Shown here: piece by piece, positions 1,922 to 47,275 of the stretch
Numbering within the stretch: position 1 is the stretch's first letter
Layout: every line of letters starts with the position of its first letter
Source: a virus
Taxonomy: Duplodnaviria; Caudoviricetes
Strand: one strand, 5' to 3'
Virus record (IMG/VR): IMGVR_UViG_3300013767_000078
Coordinates: 1-47,356 of that record
Length of the DNA stretch: 47,356 bases
Made by a program: the position numbers and the translations under genes
The notes under the pieces: generated by a model
Databases searched by the model: none
What the model saw: the letters and a program-made list of their open reading frames with translations, nothing else
Told to the model about the DNA's origin: nothing

Positions 1922-1967
1922 CTGGCCCGCCCTACACGATTCAAACGTGTGACCTACGTTTTGGAAG
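1922..1967 (+). repeat. att core, left junction (46 bp)
   Basis: ctggcccgccctacacgattcaaacgtgtgacctacgttttggaag, identical to 47230-47275. Confidence 0.96.
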
Positions 1968-3527: not shown

Positions 3528-4160
3528 CTACTCCTTCTTCGATTGGACGAGCTCGTCCGGGGTGAAGACGAACCCGGCCTTGCGCGGGAACGCCTGGAAC
3601 ACGAAGGTCGGGAACGACCGGTGATGGATGCCGTGCGTCGGAGACCGATGGAACTTCGCCGAGAGCGGCAGCATGTTCACCATCGCGTCGACGAAGGTCT
3701 CGGGCTTCGCCGTATCGAACGCATGCCAGTCAAAGCCGCGCAGTTCGACGAGCTTGCAGATCAGCCAGATGAAGGATTCCTCGGCGGGATACAGTTCCTT
3801 CGTCGGTTGGTCGGTCTCGGGATCGAGCACGGGGATTTCCTTGATCTCGCCGAGCGCAATGCCGCGCACGGCCGTCCAGTCGACGCCATCGGAGTCGGCC
3901 CATTCGCAGAAAAGGTGGTGGTACTCGGGTGCTGGCTGGCCGCTGATCGAGCAGCGCAGGCCGGCCGTGTGGCCGACCTTCTTCGTGTGGCGGAACGTCG
4001 CCGACTCGGTGCGCGGAGGGTGATCCGGGTAGTACTCGATCTCGACGTCGGTCACGCGAACGGCATGCTCGCCGGCGATCTTCGGCAGGCCGGCGAGGCC
4101 CTCGGCCGTGCACTTCTCGCAGCGCTGCTCGAGCGCGACGTCATGGCTGCATCGGGTCAT
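3528..4160 (-). CDS. Hypothetical protein with HNH-like His/Cys motifs
   Basis: 210 aa; C-x-ISG...EYHH...N.LPL...FH...HGIHH pattern. Confidence 0.5.
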   Translation of the reverse strand: MTRCSHDVALEQRCEKCTAEGLAGLPKIAGEHAVRVTDVEIEYYPDHPPRTESATFRHTKKVGHTAGLRCSISGQPAPEYHHLFCEWADSDGVDWTAVRGIALGEIKEIPVLDPETDQPTKELYPAEESFIWLICKLVELRGFDWHAFDTAKPETFVDAMVNMLPLSAKFHRSPTHGIHHRSFPTFVFQAFPRKAGFVFTPDELVQSKKE

Positions 4161-25184: not shown

Positions 25185-26592
25185 CAGGGGGAAGCTCCGT
25201 TTCGGCGGCCGGCGGCGGTTGGTCCTCGGCCTGCTTGATTTCCTCGTCGGTGATCGACGAGAACACGCCGGTGCGATGCGCTGACGCGCGCAGCTCCTTC
25301 ATGCCGCCGGCCGGCGTCACGAGGCCAGCATCGACAGCCTTCGTCACCGCGTCGGTGATCGTGTTGGCCGTCGCGGCCTTCTGCTCGTCCGTCATCTGCC
25401 ACAGCGCGCGGAAGTCGTACGAGAAGCCCTTCGGGGGAGCTTTGCCGAGCACGGAGCGGAACAGCACCTCGAACAGCACGTTCAGCGGCCGGCGCAGCCG
25501 GCGCTCCTGCTGTTGCTTGATGTTGTCGTAGTACGTGCGCAGGTCCGACTCGCCGGTGGCGTTCAGGCCGGCTGGCGACTGGCCGAGCAGCCGCACGAGC
25601 GGGATCTGCAGCGCGCCCGCGAGCTGCTGCGCGAACTGCAGCAGCACGGCGTCCAGGCCGGTGAAACCGTACTGGTCGATCTGCATTTCATCGTCAGCAT
25701 CGATCAGCGACAGCCCTTCGTTGGACTGGAACCGACGGATGAAGTCGACGTTCTTCAGCAGCGCCTCGAGCGCCGGGCCGCCCATCGCAATGATCTTGCG
25801 CAGGTCCTTCACCTTCATCGTGCGAAGGTGCGCCTTGAACACGAGCTGCGCCGCGCCCATCGTCGTGCTGTCGAACGCGACGAGCCGGTCGATCAGCCGC
25901 TCGATGACGGACTGCCCCCAGAGGTTCTCGGCGATGCGCTGCCAGTACGGCAGCGTGACGCCATCGAAGCGCAGCACGCGGCTGTAGTGGATGCGCTGGC
26001 GCGGCAGCGCCATCGAATCGGCGACGACGTCGTAGTAGCGCGGCATGCCCAGCTCAGGGCCCGGCTCCTGCACCAGGTCCGTGAGAGTCGGCTGAACTAG
26101 CCAGCGGTCGAGCACGCAGAGGCCCTTGAACTGCCCCTCGGCGATCGTGTCGAGCCGCAGTGGCTTCGACGCGTCCTGGCCGTCGATCATCATCACGGCG
26201 AGCGCGCCACCGTAGAGGCGCGACCACTTCACCGTGTCGCACAGGCTGTCCCAGATCGCGAGGTTCTCGAACCCCTGGTTCAGGGTGTCTTTGTCCTCGG
26301 GATCGATGTCGGAACCGATCTCGACGCCCATGCGCGTCATGTCTTCTGCGACGACGTCGACGGCCTGGCCAACGATCCACGACGACCGGTACATCGCCTC
26401 CATCTGCACGCGGTTGCGCGAGATGAAGTCGAACCCGTACTGATAGGCTGACGACTGGTTCGGCGTGCCGAGGCCGACGCGCGCTTCGAAGTTCTGGAAG
26501 CTGTCCGGCGTCAGCCAGCGTTTCGCGTTGGCAGAATCCGCAGCCATCGCGCGGTATTGCCGCTGCTCGGCCTTGCGTTGTTTTCGATTCAT
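25009..26592 (-). CDS. Portal protein (DUF1073-like)
   Basis: Follows TerL; Y..SW.....VD..A.DM.R, W.RLYGG, IH.SR...F.G, IP...L.G.SP.G.NATG..D...YYD. Confidence 0.85.
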
Positions 26593-28184
26593 CCTGCCAA
26601 CCTTGTCCAGATGTCCAGAACCTGCCCGGCCGGCTGATACGCGATCATCACCGCGTCAGCCAGGTTCGGCGATTTCGTGCCTTCCGGCGCCTTGTCGATG
26701 ACGATCTTCCCCACACCGTTGACGGTGTAGGTCGGCTGCGCCAGTTCCATCGTCAGCGCGGACAGCTCGTCCAGCGCTGGGTCGATCGAGATGATGTCGT
26801 CCGGGTTGTACGGCTTCCCCTCGACGACTGCGCGGTATGTCGCCTGAAAGCGCAGCCGCAGTGCCCACCACGACTGCGCCTTCAGGTTCGCGAAGAAATC
26901 CTGGTTCTTTCGCTCCTGGACCATCTCGCCTTCAGGGTCATGCACGGGCCCGGAGCCGCGGAACGGCTCGTCATTGATCGTCCGTTTGCCGATCGCGATG
27001 CGCTGCTCGTTGATCACGCGCGCGTCGCCGCGCACGCCCGCACCAAGGCCGTCGGCGTCATAGTCGAACGACTCGTAGCCGAGCTCGTCGCAGATGCCGA
27101 AGGTCTTCTCGACCGTCTCGTAGATGTCGCCGCCCTTGCCCGACCAGGACCGGAGGTAGTTCAGCAGGAAGCCGTAGCGGCCCGCGAATGCGTTCTTGTC
27201 CTTGCCCTCGTCGGCGACGTCAAGGCCGCCGCGCCGCAGGCCGGTCGGCTCGATACCGAGCTTCACGTGCGCGCCGATCGCGGCCTGCACCCATGCCGAC
27301 GGAATCACGACGCCCTCGACGGACGCCGCATAGTTGATGTCGATTTCCTGCGCGACGACCACGGCCGGCAGCTCGGCGACCTGCTTGGCGTACCAGGCGT
27401 CGTCCTTGCGCGGGTCATCGCGCCAGTGGAACGTGAAGACCTTGATCTTGCCGCTGTGCCGTCGCTGGGCGAACGAGTTGCCCATGCCGTTCGGCGTCGA
27501 GATGTCCTGGCGGCAGTTCGTCGTCGCCGACAGCGACGCGTCGACCAGCTGCGGCCGCTCGAGGAACGCCGATTCGTCCACGACGTAGAAGCTGGCGCGG
27601 TCGCCGCGCCCGATACCGTCGCCCGACTCGCCCGTGATCACCGAACCCGTGTCCGGGAACAGGATGCGCATGTGCGGCGCGTGTGTGTCGATGTTCCACG
27701 ATCCGCGGAACTCGGCCGGCAACAGACGCAGGAACTCGCGCGCCTTCCAGAACAGGCTTTTCGGCGCGCCGATCTTGTCGACGTACTCTTCCTTGCGCGA
27801 ACCGAACCCGGCTGCGACACCCTCGTGGAATAGGCAGATCGTGTCGGCGAGGCCGACCGTCAGCCACGACATGCCCATGTCGCGGGTCTTCTCGGTGATG
27901 CCCGGCTCCTGCGACTTCCAGCGCTCCATGAACCACTGGCACCATTCCTCCTGCTTCGGGAACAGCAGGAACGGGATCGTCGCCGGCAGCCCGCGCTCGA
28001 CGTTACGCGGATCGAACGTCATGCCCCAATCGATGATGAACTGGGCCGGGTTGTCCCGATAGAACGTGCGCAGCGCCGGCAGCATGGCCGGGTTCGCGCG
28101 GATGCGCTTCAACCGCTCCGCTCGCCATTCGAAGACCTGCACGTAGTCCGGTGCGCGGAAGTCGAACGGGAACGGGATGGGCAT
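26589..28184 (-). CDS. terL: Terminase large subunit
   Basis: [10 protein letters not shown] Walker A-like, YVVDE Walker [15 protein letters not shown] and SPNLAD nuclease motifs. Confidence 0.92.
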
Positions 28185-33151: not shown

Positions 33152-33352
33152 TCACTTCGCCCCCTTCGGCTTACCGCATCGCTCGGCATGAAGCTCCATG
33201 ACCCGGCTCGCGATTCCATAGGACACACGTGCACCCCGCGCACCTCTTAGGAGCGCGGAAATCAAGGACTGCGAGCACGGAACCAGGCCGGCCAGCTGAG
33301 ATTGAGTGAGTCCCGAACCCAAGAGGTCGGCGACGGCTTTTTGAATGTCCAT
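33152..33352 (-). CDS. cro: Cro-like HTH regulator
   Basis: 66 aa, GLTQSQLAGLVPCSQSLIS HTH; divergent from the repressor. Confidence 0.8.
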   Translation of the reverse strand: MDIQKAVADLLGSGLTQSQLAGLVPCSQSLISALLRGARGARVSYGIASRVMELHAERCGKPKGAK

Positions 33353-33357
33353 GCCCC

Positions 33358-33422
33358 AGTATCACATTTGTGTTTTAGACGGTCAACACAAATCGAATGG
33401 GGCGTTCTATTACGATTGTGAT
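33358..33422. promoter_or_regulatory. Right operator region: three 14-bp operators, PR and PRM
   Basis: Sites at 33361, 33385 and 33409 (24-bp spacing): ATCACATTTGTGTT, AACACAAATCGAAT, ATTACGATTGTGAT; minus-strand TTGACC-17-GATACT; plus-strand -10 TACGAT at 33411. Confidence 0.75.
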
Positions 33423-33803
33423 ATGTACACCCTAGCCGACAGACTTAAATGGGCGCGACTTCGCGCCGGCCTATCCCAAGAGCAGCTTGGCGATAAGGCG
33501 GGCGTGTCCCAATCAACAATTGGGAATCTGGAAGCCGGTACGCGCAATAGCGCGAGGCGGCTACCTCAGATCGCCGACATTCTCGGCGTCAGTGCGCTTT
33601 GGCTCGCCGAAGGCGAAGGTAAGCCAACTCCAGATCCCGATACTGAAGCAAGCTACGACTCCACAGTCAGTTCGGCGAGCGGGCCGGCAAAAACTTTGAT
33701 CGACGCCATTCTCAGGGCTGACAAAGCCGGGGAATCTAGCCAGACGTTCGAGCTGATGCTTCGAATGCTTCCTGGATCGGATAAGCTTGGCGCCGGCGAC
33801 TAG
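33423..33803 (+). CDS. cI: CI-like XRE repressor, short (126 aa), without S24 peptidase domain
   Basis: TLADRLKWARLRAGLSQEQLGDKAGVSQSTIGNLEAG...LPQIADILGVSALWLAEG; start reassigned to MYTLAD. Confidence 0.85.
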   Translation: MYTLADRLKWARLRAGLSQEQLGDKAGVSQSTIGNLEAGTRNSARRLPQIADILGVSALWLAEGEGKPTPDPDTEASYDSTVSSASGPAKTLIDAILRADKAGESSQTFELMLRMLPGSDKLGAGD

Positions 33804-34207: not shown

Positions 34208-34270
34208 ATCACAATTTCTAGATCGAAAATCACATTTGTGTTGACACAACGAAAACACGTATGTGATTAT
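34208..34270 (+). promoter_or_regulatory. Left operator region and PL-like promoter
   Basis: ATCACATTTGTGTT (34229, identical to the 33361 site), AACACGTATGTGAT (34254), partial site at 34208; TTGACA (34241)-18-GATTAT. Confidence 0.75.
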
Positions 34271-34302
34271 CACTCCAACGCAGCACACAACGCGCTGCGC
34301 CA

Positions 34303-34330
34303 CCGCCCCAGGCGGATCGCTCTCTAACAA
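34303..34330 (+). promoter_or_regulatory. nut-like antitermination site (hairpin plus boxA)
   Basis: ccgcc-cca-ggcgg hairpin followed by cGCTCTCTAACAa, one mismatch to boxA GCTCTTTAACA. Confidence 0.55.
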
Positions 34331-34661
34331 TCGAAGGTATGCCGGGACCGCTTCTGCGGAGCAACCGGCCGGCGCGATCAGCGTCGTGAGTCAGGACGGA
34401 CGCAGCGGAAGACCGCTGTGCGCCGAGCGAGCCTGATGCAAGACAGCCAGAGCAACACGTGACCGATGGCTTTGTAATCGGCACACAACCTCGCGCGGCC
34501 CGGAGCCGGCACGGCCGGGAGTAGCCGGGCGCGCGAGTGAAAGCAGTTCTGACCGGTGGCGGTTCTTCTTCGAGGCGCCACCGGTGAGAGCTGCTGCAGC
34601 AAGCACCGTTCACCGTTTCACACCCCAATTTACTTAGTAGTTCTTCCTTTCCGGAGTCTCT

Positions 34662-35042
34662 ATGAACGCGCCCACCCCCACCGCTGTATCCATTCCGCAG
34701 CTCGCCGAGGGCGAGATCTACGTCGGCATCGTCACGAACACCGCCGGCGAACAGCATCACGTCGTGCTCCTGCCGGGCGACAACGACGACGCAACGTGGC
34801 AGGCGCAAATGGAGTGGGCAAAGTCGATCGGCGGCGATCTGCCGACGCGGGTCGAAATGCTCTTCCTTCTGGAAAACCATCGCGACGAGTTCGAGCGCGA
34901 CGCGTATTGGACGTGCCAGCCGGACACCGATCCGGGCTACTCCGGCTGGGCGTGGTGCCAGCACTTCTTCAGTGGCTACCAGAGCAACGGCCCCCAGGAC
35001 GACGAGTTGCGCGCCCGCGCCGTCCGCAGATTGCCCATTTAA
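34662..35042 (+). CDS. DGR target protein 1 (remote), DUF1566/CLec-like, 126 aa
   Basis: W..Q..WA...GGDLPTR.E, YW, GWAW...F..G.Q...ELRARAVRR; its 3' end is VR1. Confidence 0.9.
   Translation: MNAPTPTAVSIPQLAEGEIYVGIVTNTAGEQHHVVLLPGDNDDATWQAQMEWAKSIGGDLPTRVEMLFLLENHRDEFERDAYWTCQPDTDPGYSGWAWCQHFFSGYQSNGPQDDELRARAVRRLPI
34941..35031 (+). repeat. DGR variable repeat VR1
   Basis: 91-bp ungapped match to TR 42073-42163 with 12 mismatches, all at TR adenines. Confidence 0.96.
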
Positions 35043-35075
35043 CCCTTCATCGATTTCAACTGCGTGGAGGGTGCG

Positions 35076-35501
35076 ATGCATCCGAACAATCACCAGGTCG
35101 GAAACGTCCGCACGCTCCCTTCGCGTATGGACGCCCTCGCCGACCACCGACAAGCAGCAGCCGATGACGCGGCTCTGACGCGCGACGAGCGCAACGAAGC
35201 GATCGCCGAGCGCGTGACGTTCGACGTGTTGCCATTCTCGGTCGATCAGATCGCAGTGGTCGACGCGGCGCTGCGCCGCGGCTACATCGAGGACGTCTAC
35301 GAGGTCTGGAACGTGTGTCAGGACGTCATGAAGGCGGAAATCGCGCGCCGCATCGCATGCGCCGACCTCGCCGCAGTCGCGCCGCGCTTCGCGCAGACGA
35401 CCTGCTCGTCGTGCGGTGTCGCGCTCGGCCCGGGCAATGCTGGCGTCAGCCACTGCGCCGACCACGGCGCGCCGGCGCTTCGCCTCCTGCGCGGGATCTG
35501 A
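35076..35501 (+). CDS. Hypothetical protein with C-terminal Zn-ribbon-like motif
   Basis: GGAGG RBS; CSSCG...HC..H. Confidence 0.6.
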   Translation: MHPNNHQVGNVRTLPSRMDALADHRQAAADDAALTRDERNEAIAERVTFDVLPFSVDQIAVVDAALRRGYIEDVYEVWNVCQDVMKAEIARRIACADLAAVAPRFAQTTCSSCGVALGPGNAGVSHCADHGAPALRLLRGI

Positions 35502-35502
35502 C

Positions 35503-35610
35503 ATGGCCCGCTTCGTCATTGGCGTCGGCGCCCTCCTGATCCTGTGGCTTGTCGTCGAACTTGCTCGCGCGATCAAGCGCTGGGGCGACGACGAGCACCA
35601 CCGCGGCTGA
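35503..35610 (+). CDS. Small membrane peptide (35 aa)
   Basis: MARFVIGVGALLILWLVVELARAIKRW single TM helix; tightly packed in the operon. Confidence 0.45.
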   Translation: MARFVIGVGALLILWLVVELARAIKRWGDDEHHRG

Positions 35611-35637
35611 GCCGCGCCAACCACACCGAGAGACCAC

Positions 35638-35967
35638 ATGGGACAGACCAGCCATCCGCAAGGGCCGTGGGAAACGTGCGAGCCCGGCGACTACCTCGAC
35701 TACGACGGCAACTGCATCGTCGTGCTCGGCGAAGACGAGCGCATCTGCATCGTGCTCGGCGCGAGCGACCAGTCTCAGGCGCGTGCGCAGCTGATCGCGG
35801 CATCGCCGGACATTGTCACCGCGCTGCGCCTCGTTGCCTCGAAAACCGTGCTCACGTCTGGGATTCGCGCCGTCGTCGACGCCGCGCTCGGCAAGGCCGG
35901 CTACACGGCACCCGTGCCGGTCACTGATCCTGTGCGCCACGTACGCGTCTGCGGCGAGGGTCTGTAA
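35638..35967 (+). CDS. Hypothetical phage protein
   Basis: H..GPW N-terminus and A.LIAA.PD...AL motif common in phage early genes. Confidence 0.65.
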   Translation: MGQTSHPQGPWETCEPGDYLDYDGNCIVVLGEDERICIVLGASDQSQARAQLIAASPDIVTALRLVASKTVLTSGIRAVVDAALGKAGYTAPVPVTDPVRHVRVCGEGL

Positions 35968-36150
35968 ATGCGCGCGCTCACCGTTCCCCGTGCGCCGACC
36001 GACAACGTGCTGCTGCGCGTGGCCGGGCGCGCACCGCGCATGCGCCGCGCCGTCGAGGCCGGCGTGTGGATGGTCGCTTACGGCGTCGCGATCGCGGGCC
36101 TCTGGTACGGCTCGCTCGTCGCCGGCCCCTACCTGAGGAGCCTCGGATGA
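35968..36150 (+). CDS. Small membrane protein
   Basis: 60 aa with C-terminal TM; abuts the upstream stop. Confidence 0.5.
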   Translation: MRALTVPRAPTDNVLLRVAGRAPRMRRAVEAGVWMVAYGVAIAGLWYGSLVAGPYLRSLG

Positions 36151-36311
36151 CCCCCTTCGATTTTCTCGGCGCGCTGCTCGAACGCATCCACGCTCGCAGC
36201 CCGGTCGTCAGCTACATCGTCGCGAGCTTGATCGCCGCCGCGTGCATGTACGTCGCCGCCGCCCTCAATGCCGACGGCACCAGCGCCGTCGCCAACCTCG
36301 TGAGAACCTGA
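36147..36311 (+). CDS. Small membrane protein
   Basis: 54 aa from MTPFDFL, AGGAG RBS, one TM; overlaps both neighbours. Confidence 0.5.
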   Translation: MTPFDFLGALLERIHARSPVVSYIVASLIAAACMYVAAALNADGTSAVANLVRT

Positions 36312-37120
36312 TGAACCCTTCCATCTACACCGTCCGCGCGTCCAGCTGGGGCGCACTCTTCGACTGCGCATACCGATGGGAGGGCATCCACCTCCTGAAA
36401 ATGCGCAACGTGGTCGGCCTGCGCGCAGCGCTCGGCACCGCGATTCACGCCGGTACGGCCGTGTTCGACCAGGCACGCATCGACGGCTCCGGCCTGACGG
36501 TCGATGACGCGGCGGGCGCGTTCGTCGACAAGCTGCGCGACCCGGAGAACGAGTTCGACCCGGCCCGCGACGACTTGAACATGTCGGATGCCGAGCGCAT
36601 CGGCCTGTCGCTCACGACGAAGTACTGCCTCGACTTCGCGCCGCGCTACAACTTCGTCGCGGTCGAGATGGAAACGAAGCCGCTCGAAATCGACTGCGGT
36701 GGCGGCGTCATCGTGCGCTTGACGGGCACGATGGACCGCGCGCGCGTGCGCCGCTCGGCAGCCGGCGTCGGTATCGCGGACCTGAAGAGCGGATCGTCTG
36801 CAGTCCAGAAAGGTGCGGCCGTCACGAAGGGGCACGGGCCGCAGATCGGCACGTACGAGCTGCTGTACGAGCACACGACTGGCGAGGAAATCGGCGACAC
36901 CGCCGAGATCATCGGCCTGAAGACGAAGGGCACGCCCGAGGTCGCAACCGCGTCTATCGCAAATTCGAAGCGCGTGATGGTCGGCACCGAGGAAACGCCC
37001 GGGCTGATCCAGTTCGCTGCGGACATGTTCCGGTCCGGCCGCTTCTACCCCAACCCGAAATCGCTGCTGTGCGACAAGAAGTACTGCCCGCGCCACGGCA
37101 CCTGCCAGTTCCACGACTAA
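36311..37120 (+). CDS. PD-(D/E)XK exonuclease, RecB/Cas4-like with probable Fe-S cluster
   Basis: RASS....FDC, GTAIH, VE, LTGTMD, IADLKSG, Q...Y, C-terminal C....C.....C. Confidence 0.8.
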   Translation: MNPSIYTVRASSWGALFDCAYRWEGIHLLKMRNVVGLRAALGTAIHAGTAVFDQARIDGSGLTVDDAAGAFVDKLRDPENEFDPARDDLNMSDAERIGLSLTTKYCLDFAPRYNFVAVEMETKPLEIDCGGGVIVRLTGTMDRARVRRSAAGVGIADLKSGSSAVQKGAAVTKGHGPQIGTYELLYEHTTGEEIGDTAEIIGLKTKGTPEVATASIANSKRVMVGTEETPGLIQFAADMFRSGRFYPNPKSLLCDKKYCPRHGTCQFHD

Positions 37121-37134
37121 CTCGCGAGATCTCC

Positions 37135-38193
37135 ATGTCCACGCCTACCACCCTGGAAGCTATCCGCAATCCCGCGCCGCGCGAGGCATCGCTGCCGCCT
37201 GTTCGCGCGGGCTTCTTCGATCTTCAAGGCTTCGAGCTGTTGCAGCGCGTCGCCAAGGCTTTCGCGTCTTCGTCACTTGTCCCCGCTCACTACCAGAACA
37301 ACGTCGCGAACTGCATGATCGCGCTGAATCTCGCGCGCCGCCTCGGCGCCGACGAGCTGATGGTCATGCAGAACCTGTACATCGTCCACGGCAACCCCGG
37401 CTGGTCGAGCAAGTTCCTGATCGCCAGCGTGAACACATGCGGCCGGTTCGAGACGCTGCGCTACGAATGGCGCGGCACCGAAGGCAGTGACGACTTCGGT
37501 TGCCGGGCATGGACGATCGAGAAGTCGACTGGCGAGCGCCTGAACGGCACCTGGATCGACTGGAAGATGGTCAAGGCTGAAGGCTGGAACAAGAAGAACG
37601 GCAGTAAGTGGCTCACGATGCCCGACCAGATGTTCGTGTATCGCTCGGCCGCGTTCTGGCAGCGGGCCTACGCCCCCGAGATCAGCATGGGGCTTTCGTC
37701 ACAGGAAGAGCTGATCGATACCGTCGAAGTTCGAGCCGACGGCTCGGTTGCAGTGACCAGCACGCTCGAAGAGCTGCGCAACGGCCGCGCGCAACCTGCG
37801 GAGGAAGTGCCGCGCGGCGCCGAGCCGGCACAGACCGGTCCCGCGACGGAATCGCGCGCGGCCGACGCGCCGCCGGCAGCTACCCGAGCCGATCGGGTCG
37901 ACGACCAGGACGAGCCTCGCGCCGGCGCCAGTCAGAGCCAAGGCGGTTTCGAGTTCGACGTCGAGGGGCTGGTGCGCGGTATCCGCGAGGACATCGAGTC
38001 CGCTGCGACCGCCGAGGATCTCGACCTCGCACGCAGCGCGATCGCCGGCGTGCCGGACGAGGCCGCGAAGGCGGACCTGAACGCGTCAGCTTCAGCGCGC
38101 ATGCGCGCCATCACCGCAGCGGCCGAACAGGCACAGCAACAGCCGCGCGCCGGCACCGCGCGCCGCACGCGCACGCCGATCAGCGCCGACTAA
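37135..38193 (+). CDS. RecT/Red-beta-like single-strand annealing protein
   Basis: LVP..YQ..ANC.IA, VMQNLY.V.G.P.WS, KW.TMP.QM..YRSA.FW.R.YAPE..MGL...EE; follows the exonuclease. Confidence 0.75.
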   Translation: MSTPTTLEAIRNPAPREASLPPVRAGFFDLQGFELLQRVAKAFASSSLVPAHYQNNVANCMIALNLARRLGADELMVMQNLYIVHGNPGWSSKFLIASVNTCGRFETLRYEWRGTEGSDDFGCRAWTIEKSTGERLNGTWIDWKMVKAEGWNKKNGSKWLTMPDQMFVYRSAAFWQRAYAPEISMGLSSQEELIDTVEVRADGSVAVTSTLEELRNGRAQPAEEVPRGAEPAQTGPATESRAADAPPAATRADRVDDQDEPRAGASQSQGGFEFDVEGLVRGIREDIESAATAEDLDLARSAIAGVPDEAAKADLNASASARMRAITAAAEQAQQQPRAGTARRTRTPISAD

Positions 38194-38205
38194 CCGGAAC
38201 CTCCC

Positions 38206-39972
38206 ATGAAGATCACCGACATCTATGTCTCGAAAGTGCTCGGGATCCACGCCGCAGACCTGCGGCTGTCGAAGCCCGTCGCACTCTTCACCGGACCGAA
38301 CGGCGCCGGCAAGAGCAGTCTGCAGGAAGCCGTGCGCATGGCGCTGACCGGCGACACCGTGCGCGTCGCGCTGAAGAAGGAATACGGCTCTCTCGTGACC
38401 GATGGTTCCGAGGCCGGCCAGATCGTCGTCGCGTGCGGCGAGCAGGCGAATAGCGTCATGCTGCCGTCGGGGAAGCTGAAGCGCGAGCTTGCCGAGGATC
38501 CGCGCTTGCCGCTGGTGCTCGACGCGCAGCGGTTCGCGCACCTTGGCGCGGCCGAGCGCCGGGCGTTCCTGTACGACCTGATGGGCGTGAAGATCGGCGT
38601 CGACGAAATGCGCGTCCGGCTGCTCGAGAAGCTCGGGCTTCGCGCCGATGTGTTGCCAGCGCCGGCCGCCGCGCGGCTCGCAGCCGTCACGCCGATGTTG
38701 CGCGCCGGATTCGAAGCAGCGCAGAAGGAGGCGGCCGACCGCGCGCGCGGCGCGAAGCAGTCATGGCGCAACGCGACCGGCGAAACGTACGGCAGCCAGA
38801 AGGCAGCCACCTGGCGGCCGGCGGCGGTCGAGTTCGACGAAGCAGTGTTGCGGAAGCTCACGGGCGACCGCGCGGCGCTCGACGACCGGATCGGCGAACT
38901 GCAGCAGCAGATCGGCGCAGCCGACGCGGCGGACACCGCAGCACGTGCGCGGGCGTCGAAAATTGCCGACCTGCGCACGCGCGCCGCCGGTTACGCGAAG
39001 GCGGTCGAGCTCGCGCAGCTCGCCGACGAGCAGGTCGCCGAATTCCTGCCCAAGGTCGAAGCGCTTCGTGTGCTCGCCGGCGCAGCGCCGGCCGGAACCG
39101 AATGCTCTTGCCCGGAATGCGGTGCGCTCTTGCGCTACCTCAACGGCGTACTGTCGGCGGCGGCTGCAGCTGGCGCGCGCGACGCCGACGCGGCCGCGAA
39201 GCTGCCCGAGTATGAACACGGCCTGAAGACGCTGCAAAACGCGGCCGTGAACCGGAAACGTGACGTCGAAGCAGCTGAATCGGCCGCGACGCAGCTGCGG
39301 GCGCTCGAAGATGACGCGGATGACAGCGGCGCGGCCGCCGCCCGAGAGAGCGGCGACGCCGCGCGCTCGGAGCTGGCCGACCTTCAGCGCCGCCGCAAGC
39401 AGCTCGACACCGAGATTGCGACGCTTCGTGAAATCGAGCGGCGCGCCTCCGGCGCTGCCGATCTGGCAAAGCAAGCTGCGGCGTTGCACGAAGACGTTGC
39501 CGCCTACGAGGCGATCGCCGACGCGCTCGCGCCCAACGGCATCCCGGCCGACCTGCTCAGCGAAGCGCTCACACCGATGAACGAGCGCCTGACGGACCTC
39601 GCCGAGATGTCCGAATGGGCCGACGTGACGATCACGCCGGAGATGGAAGTTCTCGCCGACGGCCGCGCGTACGCCCTGTTGTCCGAATCGGAACGCTGGC
39701 GCGTCGACGCGCACATCGCCGCGGCGATCAGCCTCTTCTCAGGCCTGAAGCTGCTCGTGCTGGATCGTGCCGACGTCCTGGTCGGGACGGAGCGCGACCG
39801 GCTGCTCTACTGGCTCGATGATCTCGCCTACACCGGCCAGATCGACACGGCGCTCGTGTTCATGAGCCTGAAGGCGGCGCCGGCCGGCCTGCCGGATGGA
39901 ATCGAGGCATTCTGGGTCGAGGATGGACAGGTCGGCGCGCCGGCGCCGCGTGCCGTACGGGAGGCAGCGTGA
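38206..39972 (+). CDS. SMC/Rad50(SbcC)-like ATPase
   Basis: Walker A GPNGAGKS, coiled coil with central CPEC Zn-hook, LSESE signature, LLVLD Walker B. Confidence 0.8.
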   Translation: MKITDIYVSKVLGIHAADLRLSKPVALFTGPNGAGKSSLQEAVRMALTGDTVRVALKKEYGSLVTDGSEAGQIVVACGEQANSVMLPSGKLKRELAEDPRLPLVLDAQRFAHLGAAERRAFLYDLMGVKIGVDEMRVRLLEKLGLRADVLPAPAAARLAAVTPMLRAGFEAAQKEAADRARGAKQSWRNATGETYGSQKAATWRPAAVEFDEAVLRKLTGDRAALDDRIGELQQQIGAADAADTAARARASKIADLRTRAAGYAKAVELAQLADEQVAEFLPKVEALRVLAGAAPAGTECSCPECGALLRYLNGVLSAAAAAGARDADAAAKLPEYEHGLKTLQNAAVNRKRDVEAAESAATQLRALEDDADDSGAAAARESGDAARSELADLQRRRKQLDTEIATLREIERRASGAADLAKQAAALHEDVAAYEAIADALAPNGIPADLLSEALTPMNERLTDLAEMSEWADVTITPEMEVLADGRAYALLSESERWRVDAHIAAAISLFSGLKLLVLDRADVLVGTERDRLLYWLDDLAYTGQIDTALVFMSLKAAPAGLPDGIEAFWVEDGQVGAPAPRAVREAA

Positions 39973-40592
39973 GAGAGGACATTGAGCGGTATCTCGCTGA
40001 TACGTCGGAAGCCACGGCGAAGGCCGTGGCGACCGGAACAGGGCTTCCGCAGCTCGACGTGACGAAGGAGCTGAACCGCATGCTCGGCGACGGGCTGGTC
40101 GAGCGCGAGAAGCGCGCCGGCGGCGGCAATGAGTACGTGTACTGGCTCGCGCGCGCGGCACAGGCAGCGCAGCCGCTCGGCGAAACGCCGCCGGCCGAAG
40201 CCGCGCCGGTGCTGGTATCCGTCGGCCTGGTCGAGAAGTCGCTGGACCCGAACGCCGGCGTCATCGATGTCGCGCGGATCATCGCGGAATTGCGCGCCGA
40301 CGTCGAGCGCCTCACCGCCGAGCGCGACGCCGCGCATCTGAAGGCCGACACCTGGCGCGCGAACGCCGCGACGCTCGAGGCACGTATCGACGAGCTGACG
40401 CTCGGCCCAGTCGGCACCCGCGCGCCGCTGTTCGTGACGGTCGGCCGCACTTGTAAGCCGCAGCGTCACACCTCGCTCGAACTCGCGCAGCGCCGCGGAA
40501 GCGCGCTCGTACGCAGCGAACAGGAATCCGAGGTGCTCGTGCTCGAACCGGTCGGCCGGATCGTGCGCGGCACGCAGTGGATGCCCCGCTGA
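39969..40592 (+). CDS. Hypothetical protein (N-terminal wHTH, coiled coil)
   Basis: 207 aa, GTG start overlapping the upstream TGA, GGAGG RBS. Confidence 0.6.
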   Translation: MREDIERYLADTSEATAKAVATGTGLPQLDVTKELNRMLGDGLVEREKRAGGGNEYVYWLARAAQAAQPLGETPPAEAAPVLVSVGLVEKSLDPNAGVIDVARIIAELRADVERLTAERDAAHLKADTWRANAATLEARIDELTLGPVGTRAPLFVTVGRTCKPQRHTSLELAQRRGSALVRSEQESEVLVLEPVGRIVRGTQWMPR

Positions 40593-40640
40593 TTCAACAG
40601 AGCCTATCCCGCGCGGCTTACCTCGGTCCGCGCGGCATTC

Positions 40641-40670
40641 GAAGGGCGCCGATCGGCGCCCTTCTCTTTT
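40641..40670 (+). terminator. Intrinsic terminator-like palindrome upstream of the DGR cassette
   Basis: Perfect 24-bp palindrome gaagggcgccgatcggcgcccttc followed by tctttt. Confidence 0.65.
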
Positions 40671-40681
40671 CCGGAGAAACC

Positions 40682-41044
40682 ATGCAGATCCAGCTTCCCA
40701 CGCTCGCCGAAGGCGAGATCTACCTCGGCGGCTTCGTCGACAAGAACGGCGACGTCACACACACGATCCTGCTGCCCGGCGAGAACGATCGCGGGACCTG
40801 GCAGGAACAGATGGACTGGGCCAAGAGCCGTGGCGGGGACCTTCCGACGCGCGCCGAGCTCGTGATCGCATACGAGCAGCACCGCGACCTCTTCGAGAAG
40901 GCTGCGTACTGGTCGAACATGCCGGACGACGACCCGGATTACGCCGGCTGGGCGTGGTACCAGAACTTCCTCAGTGGCTACCAGTACGACGACCGCCAGC
41001 ACGACGAGTTGCGCGCCCGCGCCGTCCGCAGATTGTCGATTTAA
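40682..41044 (+). CDS. DGR target protein 2, DUF1566/CLec-like, 120 aa
   Basis: Paralog of target 1 (LPTLAEGEIYLG vs IPQLAEGEIYVG; GGDLPTR.E); GGAG RBS; its 3' end is VR2. Confidence 0.9.
   Translation: MQIQLPTLAEGEIYLGGFVDKNGDVTHTILLPGENDRGTWQEQMDWAKSRGGDLPTRAELVIAYEQHRDLFEKAAYWSNMPDDDPDYAGWAWYQNFLSGYQYDDRQHDELRARAVRRLSI
40944..41033 (+). repeat. DGR variable repeat VR2
   Basis: 90-bp ungapped match to TR 42074-42163 with 10 mismatches, all at TR adenines. Confidence 0.96.
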
Positions 41045-41074
41045 CCCTTCATCCATTCACAATCGGAGCATGCA

Positions 41075-41539
41075 ATGACGATCACGCTGGAACAGATCGA
41101 AGCAGATCACGCGCGCATCGGCGCGATGATCGACGAGTTCAAGAAGCAGCCGCGCGCGACCCAGTACCACGTCGACGCTGTCACGGTCCCGCTCGCGGCT
41201 GGCGAGCGCATCGCCGGACAGATCCTTCTCGAAGACGGTTCGCTGAGCCACTACCTGATTCTCCTGCCGGGCGATGCTGAAGATCTGGATTGGGAGGCGG
41301 CGAAGGCCTGGGCCGCCGAACATGGCGGCGAACTGCCGACGCGGCGGGAGCAATCGTTGCTGTTCTCCAACCTGAAGGGTGAATTCGAGCCGAGCTGGTA
41401 CTGGTCCATCGAGCGTCACGAATCGAATTCCGGCTGGGCGTGGTACCAGTACTTCCGCGATGGCTTCCAGTACTACCTCCACCAGGACGGCGAGTTGCGC
41501 GCCCGCGCCGTCCGCAGATTTATCCCTTCAGTTTTTTGA
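41075..41539 (+). CDS. DGR target protein 3, DUF1566/CLec-like with N-terminal helical extension, 154 aa
   Basis: LILLPG, W..A..WA...GGELPTRREQSLLF, WYWS, GWAWYQ; its 3' end is VR3. Confidence 0.9.
   Translation: MTITLEQIEADHARIGAMIDEFKKQPRATQYHVDAVTVPLAAGERIAGQILLEDGSLSHYLILLPGDAEDLDWEAAKAWAAEHGGELPTRREQSLLFSNLKGEFEPSWYWSIERHESNSGWAWYQYFRDGFQYYLHQDGELRARAVRRFIPSVF
41429..41519 (+). repeat. DGR variable repeat VR3
   Basis: 91-bp ungapped match to TR with 13 mismatches, all at TR adenines. Confidence 0.96.
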
Positions 41540-41553
41540 TCATTTAACCCACC

Positions 41554-41910
41554 GTGGCCCTGCACAACCAACTCCCGATATATCGAGCGGCCTACGGGCT
41601 GCTCGATGACGTCACCAGCCTGGTCAAGAACATGCCCCGCGACTTCAAGCGCAGCATCGGCGAGAAGATCAGCGCGGAGTGCATCGAGATCATGGTGTTG
41701 GTGTTCCGCGCGAACGTCGCGGCCGACAAGGCGCCGCACCTGGTCGAATTGCTCGAGCGCCTGCAGGTGATCGAGCTGCTGCTTCGGCTCAGCATGGATA
41801 AGCGCCTGATCGCGCGTGACGGATACGCAGCTGCCGTCGAGAAAACGACGAGCATCGGGAAGCAGGCCACCGGCTGGAAGAACGCCGCAAACCGTCGCCC
41901 GCTCCGCTAA
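41554..41910 (+). CDS. avd: Accessory variability determinant (Avd-like four-helix bundle)
   Basis: 118 aa, LPIY..AY.L......MPR..K..IG, L..L...LRL, IGKQ..GW; lies between VR3 and TR. Confidence 0.85.
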   Translation: MALHNQLPIYRAAYGLLDDVTSLVKNMPRDFKRSIGEKISAECIEIMVLVFRANVAADKAPHLVELLERLQVIELLLRLSMDKRLIARDGYAAAVEKTTSIGKQATGWKNAANRRPLR

Positions 41911-42072
41911 GGTCAAGGCCTTCGCGGCTGAGCGATATATCAATCTGGTCGTGCCGCTGGCTCACAAGGCCACCGCCATGCGCAATGAGGAAACCGGCCG
42001 CCGGCGTGCGGAAAGGTCCAGCGCAGTTTCCCGACTGAGCAATCGGCCGGGCGACGTAGATCGCACGATACC

Positions 42073-42163
42073 TCCGGCTGGGCGTGGTACCAGAACTTCA
42101 ACAATGGCAACCAGAACAACAACCACCAGAACAACGAGTTGCGCGCCCGCGCCGTCCGCAGAT
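42073..42163 (+). repeat. DGR template repeat (TR)
   Basis: 26 adenines, nine AAY codons in the target frame (tac cag aac ttc aac aat ggc aac cag aac aac aac cac cag aac aac gag), and a 14-nt G/C-only tract at 42141-42154. Confidence 0.96.
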
Positions 42164-43264
42164 CGAGGGCCATTTTCGTTCGCCGAGCTGGTCGAAGCGT
42201 ATCTCGACTGCCGGCGAACGAAGCGAAACAGCAATGCAGCGCTCGCGTTCGAGATGCGGCTCGAACGAAACCTGCGCCGCCTCTACGACGAGCTGGCCGA
42301 CGGCAGCTACATGCCCGGCCGCTCGAAGTGCTTCGTCATCACGAGACCGAAGCCGCGCGAAGTCTGGGCGGCCACGTTTCGCGATCGCATTGTGCACCAC
42401 CTGCTTTACAACCGGATCGGCCCGCATTTCGAGCGGTCTTTCATAGCCGATTCCTGCGCCTGCATCAAGGGGCGCGGCACGCTGTACGCCGCGCAGCGCC
42501 TCGAATCGAAGGTTCGGTCGATCACGCAGAACTGGTCGAAGCGCGCGTTCTACCTGAAGTGCGATCTCGCGAACTTCTTCGTCAGCATCGACAAGCTGAT
42601 CCTGCGCGACCTGCTGCACGCGAAGATCCCCGAGCCGTTCTGGCGATCGCTGACCGAAACCGTGCTGATGCACGATCCACGGACCGACTACGAGTACCAC
42701 GGCGATCCCGCCATGATGGAGCTCGTGCCACCCCATAAACGGTTACTCGAACAGGCGCCTGACCTCGGTCTTCCGATCGGGAACCTGTCGAGCCAGTTCT
42801 TCGCGAACGTCTACCTCGACGTGCTCGACCAGCGCGCAAAGCACATGCTCGGCGCGCGGCACTACGTCCGCTACGTCGATGACTTCGTGTTCCTGCACGA
42901 CTCGCCGGAGCGACTGAACGAGATTCTCACCGATGTCACAGCCTTCCTGCCGGAACGGCTCGGCGCGCGAATCAACCCGCGAAAAACCATCCTGCAGCCG
43001 ATCGACCGCGGCATCGACTTCGTCGGCCAGGTCATCAAGCCTTGGCGCCGAGAAACGCGGAAGCGCACGCGCAATGAAGCACTGCGGCGTGTCGTCGAGA
43101 CGCCGGCCGGCGACCTGATGCCCGTCGCAAATTCGTATTTCGGCCTGCTGCGGCAGGCAACCGCCAGCCACCAAGATCGCGCAAGCCTTGCGAACCTCCT
43201 GCGTTCGCTGGGGAAGTCCGTCGATCACGATCTAACAAAAACCTATCGGAGCTCCAACGCATGA
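42104..43264 (+). CDS. DGR reverse transcriptase (start uncertain: ATG 42104 inside the TR, or ATG 41978)
   Basis: L..AY...R..KR, PKPREV, FRDRIVHH, S.AC..GRG, LKCD..NFF.SI, GLPIGNLSSQFFAN (DGR-type SQ motif), YVRYVDD, GIDFVG. Confidence 0.95.
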   Translation: MATRTTTTRTTSCAPAPSADRGPFSFAELVEAYLDCRRTKRNSNAALAFEMRLERNLRRLYDELADGSYMPGRSKCFVITRPKPREVWAATFRDRIVHHLLYNRIGPHFERSFIADSCACIKGRGTLYAAQRLESKVRSITQNWSKRAFYLKCDLANFFVSIDKLILRDLLHAKIPEPFWRSLTETVLMHDPRTDYEYHGDPAMMELVPPHKRLLEQAPDLGLPIGNLSSQFFANVYLDVLDQRAKHMLGARHYVRYVDDFVFLHDSPERLNEILTDVTAFLPERLGARINPRKTILQPIDRGIDFVGQVIKPWRRETRKRTRNEALRRVVETPAGDLMPVANSYFGLLRQATASHQDRASLANLLRSLGKSVDHDLTKTYRSSNA

Positions 43265-45156: not shown

Positions 45157-45917
45157 CCGAACGCCCTATCCTTTTCAGCGGCCCGATGGTGCGCGCTATC
45201 CTCGAAGGCCGGAAAACGCAGACGCGCCGCGTCGTGAAGTGCCAACCTCCTGACGACGTCACGCCGATCACCGTCGCGCGGTACAACCCGACGATCATCG
45301 ACCGGAACGGTGACGAAGAGCCAGGCCCGGAGATCTTCGGCGCATTCAGCGAAGACGGTGAATGGGGGGGTAAGTCGCCATTCGGGGAACCCGGCGACCG
45401 GCTGTGGGTGCGCGAGACGCACCTGAACTGGTGGAAGCTCGATGAGGCCAATCCCGACGGCCCGCGCGTGTTCTCGCATGTCGCCGCGTACGCGGCCGAC
45501 GGATACGAACTGCAGCCTGGCGAGACGTGGATTCCGTCGATCCACATGCTGCGCGCCGCCTCGCGCATCACGCTCGAGATCACCTGCGTACGCGCCGAGC
45601 GCCTGCAGAACATCAGCGAGGGCAATGCGATCGCAGAAGGCGCCGTCTACACGGACTTCGGTATCGAGCCGCCGAAAGGCTCGATCAGCCTCGATGGCGG
45701 ACGCACCTTCCATCCCGTCGTGCGCGGCACGCAGCGGAACGGCTGGCACATGGGTGACGCGACCAGCCACGAGAAGTGCATGGGAACGGCCAAGTACGCT
45801 TTCGCGAACCTGATCAATCGACTGCATGGTGGCGAAAACTGGAACTTGAAAGGCCCGGGCCTTTGGGAGGCGAACCCGTGGGTGTGGGTCATCGAATTCA
45901 GGAGGGTTGAAAAGTGA
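45153..45917 (+). CDS. Conserved phage protein (ASCH/PUA-like)
   Basis: ERPILF...MVRAIL.GRKTQTRR, GDRLWVRET, PSIHM.R.ASRI.LEI..VR.ERLQ, W..NPWVWVIEF. Confidence 0.75.
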   Translation: MTERPILFSGPMVRAILEGRKTQTRRVVKCQPPDDVTPITVARYNPTIIDRNGDEEPGPEIFGAFSEDGEWGGKSPFGEPGDRLWVRETHLNWWKLDEANPDGPRVFSHVAAYAADGYELQPGETWIPSIHMLRAASRITLEITCVRAERLQNISEGNAIAEGAVYTDFGIEPPKGSISLDGGRTFHPVVRGTQRNGWHMGDATSHEKCMGTAKYAFANLINRLHGGENWNLKGPGLWEANPWVWVIEFRRVEK

Positions 45918-46255
45918 GCGAACAGGCTGAAACCGCCCTCACCTTACAGCAGGTAGCTGACCGACTGCAGCTTTCCTACAGCACGGTTTTCGCAATGCGA
46001 AAGCAAATTGGCTTCCGTATGCCCGGTTCGCGCGTCTGGCGCGTTTGGCCGTCCCAACTTGCCAGCATGTCCGAAAGGCGCAACAATCTGACCCGGCTAT
46101 CGCTGCGGGTCGGTATGGAGGACAAATGTCAATCCGCAAAGATAAAAAGTCCGGTATCTATCACCTCGACATCAGCGCGCCAGGCGGCGAAAGAATTCGC
46201 CGCTCTGCTGAAACAAAGGACAAACGGGCAGCGCAGGAATACCACGACCGGCTGA
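45914..46255 (+). CDS. Excisionase-like HTH protein
   Basis: LTLQQVADRLQLSYSTV...G.R..G...WRV; directly upstream of and overlapping int. Confidence 0.65.
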   Translation: MSEQAETALTLQQVADRLQLSYSTVFAMRKQIGFRMPGSRVWRVWPSQLASMSERRNNLTRLSLRVGMEDKCQSAKIKSPVSITSTSARQAAKEFAALLKQRTNGQRRNTTTG

Positions 46256-47220
46256 AGGCTGATTTGTGGCGGCAGGATAAGCTCGGCGAGGTACCCGACC
46301 GCATTTTCGAAGAGGCTGCCATGCGGTTCCTGAAGCTATGTGAGGGGCAGCGCGATTATGCCGGGAAGCTTCGGCACGTCACATATTGGGGAGAGCAATT
46401 TGTCGGTCGCTCAATTCGGAGCATTACTGGTGACGATATCTTCAACGCGTTGCCGACCCATCGATTGATCAAGGGGAAGCCCGCGCGGCCACTCGAGCCA
46501 GGCACGCGCAACCGCTACGTCAACACCATCCGGCGCATGCTGAACCTGTGCGTCGAGTGGGAATGGTTGGACCGCGTGCCGAAGCTCCAGCGGTTCGAGG
46601 AGCCCGACGTGCGGGTGCGGTGGGAGTCGCCGGCGGTCATCATGACGATGATCAATGCGTTGCGCCTGCCGTGGATGCGCGACGCGGCGATCGTAGCCGT
46701 GGCGACTGGGATGCGCGAGTCCGAGCTGTTCGGCCTGCGCATCTCGCAGCTCGACCTCCCGCAGTGCAATGCGTGGATCACGCACGAGGGCGCAAAGTCG
46801 AAGCGAGCCCGGTCGGTACCGCTGAACGAGGATGCGATGAGCGTGCTCGCGCGGCGGGCCCAGACGGCGACGGATCTCGTTTTTACGCGCGGGTACACGC
46901 GCGGAGACGGGCCGCCGAAGCTGATCGGGCAGATCGACAAGCGGGACTTCGCGCGGGCGTGTGAGGCGGCCGGGATGGTCGACTTCAACTGGCACGACCT
47001 GCGGCATACCTGGGCGAGCTGGCACGTGCAGCGCGGCACGCCGCTGATGGTGCTGAAGGAACTGGGCGGTTGGGAGACCGTTGCCATGGTGCAGAAATAC
47101 GCGCACCTCGCACCGAGCCATCTGGCTCAGCACGCCGGCAACGTCAAGTTTCTGTCAATGTCGGTTGAGCAGAAACAAAAAACGCCGCTGTCGGAAGCGG
47201 CGCAATCCCTTGCTGCATAA
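46126..47220 (+). CDS. int: Tyrosine recombinase / phage integrase
   Basis: TGMR..E, K, HDLRH, LGGW, Y catalytic residues; GGAGG RBS before MSIRKDK; ends 9 bp from the att core. Confidence 0.95.
   Translation: MSIRKDKKSGIYHLDISAPGGERIRRSAETKDKRAAQEYHDRLKADLWRQDKLGEVPDRIFEEAAMRFLKLCEGQRDYAGKLRHVTYWGEQFVGRSIRSITGDDIFNALPTHRLIKGKPARPLEPGTRNRYVNTIRRMLNLCVEWEWLDRVPKLQRFEEPDVRVRWESPAVIMTMINALRLPWMRDAAIVAVATGMRESELFGLRISQLDLPQCNAWITHEGAKSKRARSVPLNEDAMSVLARRAQTATDLVFTRGYTRGDGPPKLIGQIDKRDFARACEAAGMVDFNWHDLRHTWASWHVQRGTPLMVLKELGGWETVAMVQKYAHLAPSHLAQHAGNVKFLSMSVEQKQKTPLSEAAQSLAA
47141..47162 (+). repeat. Putative integrase arm-type sites, right arm
   Basis: acgtcaagtttctgtcaatgtc, 20/22 identical to 2085-2106. 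Confidence 0.65.
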
Positions 47221-47229
47221 GGCTTTCAA

Positions 47230-47275
47230 CTGGCCCGCCCTACACGATTCAAACGTGTGACCTACGTTTTGGAAG
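47230..47275 (+). repeat. att core, right junction (46 bp)
   Basis: Identical to 1922-1967. Confidence 0.96.

What the first reader, a model, noticed from the sequence alone, without database searches (positions are those of the whole stretch)
34662..43264. Prophage DGR diversifying three small cytoplasmic early proteins, not a tail fibre
Seen: one TR (42073-42163) aligns without gaps to the 3' ends of three genes (VR1 34941-35031, VR2 40944-41033, VR3 41429-41519). They carry 12, 10 and 13 mismatches, all 35 at TR adenines, next to an Avd-like gene and an RT with GNLSSQ and YVDD. The targets are 120-154 aa paralogs with no signal peptide or TM segment, essentially a bare DUF1566/CLec-like domain. 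They lie in the early recombination operon, and I saw no VR in the tail fibre or tailspike genes. Established: the model phage DGR (Bordetella BPP-1) diversifies the virion receptor-binding protein Mtd, and characterised bacterial targets (TvpA, LdtA) are surface lipoproteins. Inference: this is a library of hypervariable intracellular binders; nine AAY codons alone allow 15^9 (~3.8e10) sequences per target. Plausible roles are counter-defence, host takeover or competitor-phage exclusion. I cannot tell from the sequence whether this arrangement has been described.
Basis: partly seen in the sequence, partly recalled or inferred. Interest (0 to 1): 0.95.

Follow-up and report, generated by a model that had tools for sequence, protein, structure and literature searches.

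The report
Phage hypermutates three small early binders
A Burkholderia prophage carries an intact targeted-mutation element (a DGR) whose template matches the ends of three tiny genes in its early gene arm rather than its tail; the proteins are predicted lectin-fold dimers that likely bind host proteins inside the infected cell, a layout already catalogued but with no tested function.

Summary
Observation confirmed exactly: one template, three variable repeats, 35 of 35 mismatches at template adenines, intact Avd and RT, no template match in tail genes. The layout is not new: it is listed for Burkholderia cenocepacia H111 in a 2017 survey and for phage Magia, and this scan met it before on other DNA. 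I found it in 116 loci across beta/gamma-proteobacteria.

What I add: (1) target 1 is the first gene after an operator-flanked early promoter, and myoviruses and siphoviruses carry the same cassette, arguing against a virion role; (2) 28 of 28 repeats sharing this template differ, so the lineage has been active; (3) target 3 is a predicted homodimer with the variable hairpins at the interface (0.78 versus 0.02 control); (4) an 8-bp-spaced TT array follows 212 of 221 variable repeats and 0 of 94 templates, mostly without the classic hairpin (also noted earlier by this scan).

The ligand is unknown. Binding host proteins during early lytic growth, likely defence proteins, is my best inference (about 0.5). 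New member of a known kind; interest 0.5.

The parts
1922..1967 (+). 46-bp att core, left end of the prophage, just downstream of host glmS (54-1871)
   Evidence: identical direct repeat D17; glmS domains
33361..33374 (+). operator-like site ATCACATTTGTGTT between cro-like (33152-33352, -) and cI-like genes
   Evidence: promoter-like site 33386-33358 on - strand
33423..33803 (+). cI-like HTH repressor
   Evidence: HTH_3 E 1e-13, PHROG 4 (run on the longer ORF from 33345); start at 33423 inferred
34229..34270 (+). PL-like promoter (TTGACA-18-TGnGATTAT) overlapped by two inverted operator-like sites at 34229-34242 and 34254-34267
34662..35042 (+). target gene 1 (126 aa, stand-alone CLec/DUF1566), first plausible gene after PL
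34941..35031 (+). VR1, 12 A-only mismatches
35037..35060 (+). three 8-bp units (ATTTAACC CTTCATCG ATTTCAAC), candidate target mark
36242..39972 (+). exonuclease, RecT-like annealing protein and SbcC-like ATPase of the same early arm
40641..40664 (+). terminator-like hairpin just before target 2
   Evidence: terminator annotated at the same place in Magia
40682..41044 (+). target gene 2 (120 aa); AlphaFold2 pLDDT 94, CLec fold
40944..41033 (+). VR2, 10 A-only mismatches
41039..41062 (+). three 8-bp units (ATTTAACC CTTCATCC ATTCACAA)
41075..41539 (+). target gene 3 (154 aa): N-terminal helix 5-23 plus CLec domain; predicted homodimer
41429..41519 (+). VR3, 13 A-only mismatches
41518..41549 (+). 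four 8-bp units (ATTTATCC CTTCAGTT TTTTGATC ATTTAACC), partly inside the coding end of target 3
41554..41910 (+). avd (118 aa, pI 9.8)
42073..42163 (+). template repeat TR (26 A, nine AAY codons); no 8-bp array behind it
41978..43264 (+). DGR reverse transcriptase; the frame is open through the TR, likely start ATG 41978
46045..47220 (+). tyrosine integrase ORF (real start probably internal), excisionase 45914-46255 before it
47230..47275 (+). 46-bp att core, right end of the prophage

Best explanation
This is an intact multi-target DGR in the early arm of a Burkholderia prophage whose template matches the ends of three small signal-less genes; the proteins are predicted lectin-fold dimers that likely act in the cytoplasm early in lytic growth, likely by binding host proteins such as defence factors. 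Shown: TR/VR pattern, Avd, RT, gene position, lineage-wide VR divergence, the 8-bp array behind VRs only. From established DGR biology: RT and Avd copy TR RNA with errors at A, and the cDNA replaces a VR. Inferred: induction or infection opens the operator-overlapped PL promoter; the 8-bp TT array is the recipient mark that tells VR from TR in place of the BPP-1 hairpin; two variable hairpins meet at the dimer axis to form one binding face; variants that bind and neutralise a host factor are favoured.
For: A-only mismatches 35 of 35, no other TR match. Identical operator-like 14-mers at both early promoters (3 exact matches of 5 hits; 1.5 hits expected at up to 2 mismatches), and only ORFs of 21-57 aa lie wholly before target 1 on the + strand. 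88 of 94 loci of at least 14 kb have a labelled early or lysogeny neighbour, cI upstream and integrase downstream. The same cassette with A-only VRs occurs in sheath-bearing phages (window, Magia) and in sheath-less Haboob and phPA-G. 206 unique clean targets: 96-276 aa, median pI 5.1, 0 lipoboxes, 5 with a hydrophobic 19-mer. 28 of 28 VRs from 9 loci with an identical TR are unique, median 14 differences. CLec fold: pLDDT 94 and 93; Lcl C-terminal domain TM 0.70; Z 13.2 (rmsd 2.2, 102 aligned) to Bd2740 and 12.9 (rmsd 4.1, 113 aligned) to Lcl. Target 3 homodimer: score 0.78 against best control 0.02; runs agree in at least 98% of contacts; pLDDT 91; in calibration 20 of 30 true dimers and 1 of 23 monomers reached the mark. 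The interface includes VR residues 129-133, and residue 94 on the axis is S/A/G in 47 of 47 aligned relatives. Array: 212 of 221 unique VR tails, 0 of 94 TR tails, 1 of 557 other gene ends, 138 of 6598 T-matched windows, 41 of 45 RT groups; a matrix trained without the window's RT group ranks the three VR tails as its top four hits in the window.
Against: No ligand, phenotype, virion proteome or expression level was found. The targets match no PADLOC model, and the few longer homologues give only indirect hints. Early-arm position is shared by many genes unrelated to defence. The Tyr/Asp/Gly/Ser-rich VR composition does not show selection, since PMC12875486 reports Tyr, Ser and Asp as intrinsic RT products. 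Invariant Gln and Glu positions are all A-before-G, which stays unchanged in 98% of 723 cases, so RT context may explain them. Contigs of one related strain showed the same listed VR letters in runs of 2015, 2019 and 2024, apart from one single-base gap in one run, so no ongoing change was seen; contigs drop rare variants. The dimer was tested for one of three targets and one stoichiometry only. The nearest folds (Lcl, Bd2740, Mtd) are surface adhesins. My localisation test was hydropathy and motif scans, not a dedicated predictor.
Confidence: 0.5

Rival explanations
1. The proteins are binders aimed at competing phages or other mobile elements in the same cell (exclusion or interference), not at host factors.
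For: A hypervariable binder suits fast-changing viral ligands; cytoplasmic CLec sensors of invaders are proposed for cellular DGRs in 10.1101/2023.09.22.558884. RNA-library contigs of related strains cover the arm, though DNA carry-over is not excluded.
Against: The genes lie behind an operator-overlapped promoter and a terminator-like hairpin, so they are probably silent in the lysogen. There is no effector domain and no conserved third partner beyond RT and Avd: the next most shared same-strand neighbours occur in 11 of 48 RT groups.
Confidence: 0.15
2. They are sensors or regulators of the lysis-lysogeny choice or of early transcription, tuned by variation to host proteases, polymerase or small molecules.
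For: Target 1 occupies the first position after PL, where lambda keeps N and cIII (recalled).
Against: No DNA- or RNA-binding domain; proteins are acidic. The first-position copy is optional: most loci show only the two adjacent targets within the 10 kb flank (68 of 116 have two). Conserved host regulators would not need a large library.
Confidence: 0.13
3. They are accessory virion proteins or released adhesins that recognise cell surfaces, like Mtd but encoded apart from the tail.
For: Nearest solved folds are adhesin tips (Bd2740, Lcl, Mtd at Z 8.1). Most viral DGR targets were annotated as tail proteins in PMC8144416. PMC7883833 suggests host-range change as one possibility.
Against: Opposite strand and different operon from all structural genes; same cassette with contractile and non-contractile tails; no anchor, collagen or fibre domain; size stays 96-276 aa in 206 targets.
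Confidence: 0.1
4. The cassette is nearly neutral cargo: the VRs drift by homing and the proteins matter little.
For: VR composition can be explained by RT bias. Earlier scan notes describe phages in which an HNH gene replaced the DGR core (not tested here).
Against: The scaffold, the tandem pair, Avd, RT and the array are kept across 48 RT groups at an 80% identity cut; extra target copies have been placed at remote sites repeatedly.
Confidence: 0.1

Closest known systems
DGR of Burkholderia phage Magia (MT701587, genes 47, 46, 45, 44 and remote 57; PMC7883833)
   Same: Same gene order and same place around recT/exonuclease; RT 91% identical, target 2 87.5% identical; the same three VR positions are found.
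   Different: The paper names two targets (47, 57), not gene 46, and leaves the function open (adaptation or host range). VR alleles differ.
CLec2 / category d1 / architecture B1 DGRs of PMC5758913 Table S1 (B. cenocepacia H111, B. thailandensis MSMB43, R. solanacearum CMR15)
   Same: TG-TG-AVD-TR-RT plus a non-adjacent bare DUF1566 target in both Burkholderia rows (CMR15: one adjacent, two non-adjacent); stem-loop scored 'no' or 'weak'.
   Different: The phage-homologue column is empty in those rows; the passages I read do not mention early-operon position, an 8-bp array or dimers.
Bordetella phage BPP-1 DGR (mtd-avd-TR-brt)
   Same: Avd, RT, A-specific TR-to-VR changes, C-terminal VR on a CLec fold (Mtd Z 8.1), GC-rich 3' end of the repeat.
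   Different: BPP-1 has one virion target and a GC hairpin needed for efficient homing (PMC3240598 abstract). Here there are three small early targets and no hairpin. The BPP-1 IMH lacks the TT array but shows TGA at spacings of 8 and 7.
Quimbyvirus second DGR target (PMC8008677)
   Same: Non-structural phage target on the strand opposite the structural genes, near methyltransferases, proposed to act in phage-host conflict.
   Different: Bacteroidetes phage, one such target beside a tail target, frameshifted RT; also untested.
Clade 5 cellular DGR targets proposed as antigen sensors (10.1101/2023.09.22.558884)
   Same: Cytoplasmic hypervariable CLec domains proposed to recognise proteins in a conflict.
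   Different: Host-encoded, fused to STAND/vWA/peptidase effectors; here phage-encoded and effector-less.

Membership tests
Diversity-generating retroelement | TR-VR pairs that differ only at TR adenines | tested here: met
   35 of 35 mismatches
Diversity-generating retroelement | DGR-type RT with intact catalytic motif | tested here: met
   PHROG 1423 E 8e-112; YVDD at 42872, open frame
Diversity-generating retroelement | Avd accessory gene | tested here: met
   bAvd E 1e-12, above cut-off
Diversity-generating retroelement | VR at the C-terminus of a CLec-fold domain | tested here: met
   (predicted models)
Diversity-generating retroelement | RT-dependent mutagenic homing in this copy | not testable with these tools
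   only contigs were available; lineage-level divergence shown
CLec2/DUF1566 d1, architecture B1 lineage (PMC5758913) | TG(s)-AVD-TR-RT order with bare DUF1566 targets and a non-adjacent target | tested here: met
   the Pfam Lcl_C score is below the cut-off, the fold match to Lcl supports it
BPP-1-type tropism-switching DGR | target is a virion receptor-binding tail protein in the tail module | tested here: not met
   no TR match in tail genes; targets on the other strand in the early arm. Virion presence itself was not tested.
BPP-1-type tropism-switching DGR | GC-rich hairpin just downstream of VR | tested here: not met
   longest perfect GC-rich stems 4, 5 and 3 bp within 100 nt of the three VRs; 18 of 247 VR tails in relatives reach 7 bp
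Surface lipoprotein targets (LdtA, TvpA) | signal peptide with lipobox | tested here: not met
   0 of 206 lipobox matches (motif scan only)
Phage anti-defence proteins | inhibits a defined host defence system | not testable with these tools
   needs plating or pull-down; no anti-defence library was available

The most novel reading that the evidence does not exclude
Temperate proteobacterial phages run an antibody-like intracellular repertoire: paralogous hypervariable CLec chains pair through a shared surface (homo- and heterodimers), so two independently mutated halves form one binding site that neutralises host immune proteins, and a hairpin-free 8-bp repeat code addresses any gene end for mutagenesis.
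Probability: 0.2. Interest if true: 0.88.

Novelty: new member of a known kind. Interest (0 to 1): 0.5.

Why it matters
If the targets bind host defence proteins, this would be adaptive counter-immunity by phages, a use of DGRs that has only been proposed so far. The lineage is common (116 loci, 48 RT groups here) and includes cultured phages of a laboratory-grade host (vB_E192a from B. thailandensis), so the question is testable. The 8-bp array addresses a gap stated in PMC5758913: only 34% of DGRs have the hairpin, and how the rest tell VR from TR is unexplained. A compact multi-target DGR with a short portable mark could also serve as a mutagenesis tool.

Tried and rejected
RecT as a dedicated homing partner: the window-type RecT occurs in only 15 of 94 long loci and 3 of 48 RT groups; other annealing-protein families were not labelled, so this is weak. 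A conserved DNA-binding partner for the array: none found among clustered neighbours. VR amino-acid bias as proof of selection: rejected, because RT bias gives the same residues. Within-sample VR variants: two read-laying runs had contigs only and showed none; RNA-library cover cannot show expression or timing. Fusion forms: 39 longer proteins among 7994 scored candidates; the closest are read-through-like joins to other early-type ORFs or tandem targets, one with a WDGH domain, and none names a function. PADLOC: no hit for the three targets. ESM Atlas: nearest clusters are unnamed or Lcl_C in 27% of members. Sequence search of solved structures: only Lcl, E 4e-4. Host genome: the assembly is the window alone, so remote chromosomal targets could not be sought. 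Papers on Haboob and Cruim01 do not mention the DGR in the main text; the Minerva preprint was irrelevant. A word search of scan notes for dimers returned nothing.
Full report
Observation. The window is one 47,356-bp contig holding a complete prophage between identical 46-bp repeats at 1922-1967 and 47230-47275, next to glmS. Named members of the glmS cluster are Burkholderia cepacia complex species (15 of 553 listed). The template TR 42073-42163 matches three gene ends with 12, 10 and 13 mismatches, all at template adenines; the next best match on either strand has 27 or more non-A mismatches. Avd and RT are intact.

Setting. Structural and lysis genes run on the minus strand, from the terminase (26589-28184) down to about 2,000; the DGR and its targets run on the plus strand with exonuclease, RecT-like, SbcC-like, methyltransferase, excisionase and integrase genes. 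A 14-bp operator-like sequence occurs exactly three times: once at the cro/cI promoter region and twice, inverted, across a strong sigma-70-like promoter at 34241-34270. Only ORFs of 21-57 aa lie wholly between that promoter and target 1. I infer a lambda-like repressor-controlled early operon (lambda layout recalled), with targets 2 and 3, avd, TR and RT behind a terminator-like hairpin. Expression was not measured: RNA runs were contigs only.

Relatives. Scans gave 50 viral loci and the best 80 of 83 genome hits. With Magia and the window that is 132; 6 lacked an RT in the fetched flank and 116 had at least one TR-VR pair. Of these, 106 have two or more VRs within 10 kb. They fall into 48 groups at 80% RT identity, one group holding 53 loci, so they are not independent. 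Of 263 VR hits I dropped 49 that were cut by contig ends, short, or read in a wrong or shifted frame; the 206 unique remaining targets are 96-276 aa, median pI 5.1, none with a lipobox, 5 with a hydrophobic 19-mer, 124 without cysteine outside the last 45 residues. Of 94 loci of at least 14 kb, 88 have a labelled early or lysogeny neighbour; homologues of the window's own structural genes appeared in only one other locus, which has no VR pair; divergent tails would be missed. Haboob and phPA-G, whose annotations show no sheath, carry the cassette between cI and integrase with A-only VRs. Tail type therefore does not travel with the targets.

Activity. Nine loci share the window's TR letter for letter; their 28 VRs are all different, median 14 changes. 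That shows repeated past homing in the lineage, not activity of this copy. Contigs of a related strain from three years show the same listed VR letters, apart from one single-base gap in one run. Adenines before G are unchanged in 98% of 723 cases; AAY codons give mostly Tyr 20%, Asp 15%, Gly 13%, Ser 12%, Asn 10% of 1693. PMC12875486 (passages) reports a similar intrinsic bias for the BPP-1 RT, so this is not evidence of selection, and the usable library is well below 15^9.

Protein structure. Both models are confident (pLDDT 94 and 93). Best matches are the Lcl C-terminal domain (Foldseek E 7e-5, TM 0.70) and Bd2740/Lcl (Z 13.2 and 12.9), then many C-type lectins. Target 3 has an extra amphipathic helix (5-23). 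Two copies of target 3 scored 0.78 against a best control of 0.02, with at least 98% contact agreement and pLDDT 91; in calibration 20 of 30 dimers and 1 of 23 monomers reached the mark, and the counts hold only roughly with my alignment. The interface uses residues 25-51, 91-101 and VR residues 129-133, not the N-terminal helix. Residue 94 on the axis is Ser, Ala or Gly in 47 of 47 relatives and Leu95 is kept in 46 (the same alignment fed the model). No solved complex is close in sequence. Because the interface lies mostly in the domain shared by all three paralogues, heterodimers are possible but untested; targets 1 and 2 have larger residues at that position.

Target mark. Behind each VR, and not behind the TR, lies a row of TT spaced by 8 bp. 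Of 263 tails, 247 could be anchored and 221 were unique: 212 have TT-N6-TT-N6-TT, against 0 of 94 TR tails and 23 of 1105 shuffles, 1 of 557 other gene ends and 138 of 6598 T-matched windows; it holds in 41 of 45 RT groups and in 39 of 42 remote targets. Nine unique tails miss, some through a wrong anchor or a 7-bp step. A matrix trained without the window's group ranks the three VR tails first in the window. Perfect GC-rich stems of 7 bp or more follow only 18 of 247 VRs, though 6 of 45 groups do have them. BPP-1 lacks the TT row but its IMH has TGA at 8 and 7 bp spacing, so the array may be a lineage form of IMH rather than a new kind of element. A role in homing is inferred from position only. 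I saw the array before reading scan notes; two to four earlier notes describe it on other DNA.

Literature. PMC5758913 (passages, section 14 part 1, four rows of Table S1) lists this architecture. PMC3521204 (passages) lists multi-VR DGRs of Burkholderia and Ralstonia and TR/RT overlap. PMC7883833 (main text) reports the Magia DGR. PMC8008677 (passages) proposes a conflict role for a non-structural phage target. PMC8144416 (abstract, sections 8-9, passages) treats viral targets as mostly tail proteins. PMC3240598 was seen as abstract only; 10.1101/2023.09.22.558884 and PMC12860723 as passages. Searches listed no paper that tests these proteins or, by title and abstract start, describes the array or a dimer. 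The library lacks most subscription papers, and I did not read supplements other than that one table; TR-VR alignments in the supplements of PMC5758913 and PMC8144416 may show the array.

Verdict. A real, intact member of a catalogued and widespread DGR lineage. Non-virion, early, cytoplasmic action is well supported by context (about 0.85). The specific role, binding host proteins such as defence factors, is my best inference (about 0.5). The predicted dimer and the 8-bp mark give concrete tests. Interest 0.5.

Noticed in passing
window 41978-42172: The RT reading frame is open across the whole TR, with no ATG after it. The same holds in 112 of 116 loci (ATG after the TR in only 6); the other two frames are open over the same span in 1 and 2 of 116. 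The TR is probably also translated as a Thr/Arg-rich RT leader; overlap of annotated ORFs is noted in PMC3521204.
   Followed up: partly
window 34270-34661: About 390 nt of leader between the PL-like promoter and target 1, with long GC-rich inverted repeats and no clear gene; could be an antitermination RNA or small RNA.
   Followed up: no
window 1922-1967 and 47230-47275: 46-bp att core downstream of glmS; it holds no tRNA by ARAGORN.
   Followed up: partly
window 5251-7098 (-): 615-aa tail-associated ORF with only an N-terminal tail-fibre match and no Pfam family; probable tailspike, not DGR-diversified.
   Followed up: no
window 2083-2685 (-) and 3528-4160 (-): Lipase_3-family gene at the end of the lysis module and an HNH-like gene beside the GH19 endolysin.
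   Followed up: no
L134 (OK094664.1) and OP650936.1: Two 47,902-bp records labelled as Shewanella and Tenericutes phages carry an RT 92% identical to this Burkholderia one; the host labels look doubtful.
   Followed up: no
L016, L018-L022; L135:1937-2350: Target homologues with no RT in the fetched flank mostly keep the 8-bp array (13 of 14 gene ends); some flanks are simply cut. The EBPR siphovirus 1 homologue lacks it.
   Followed up: partly
P0002, P0006: Target domains joined to other early-type ORFs; P0006 has a WDGH domain and P0002 a MazG-like stretch (by eye, recalled pattern, not confirmed by Pfam).
   Followed up: partly
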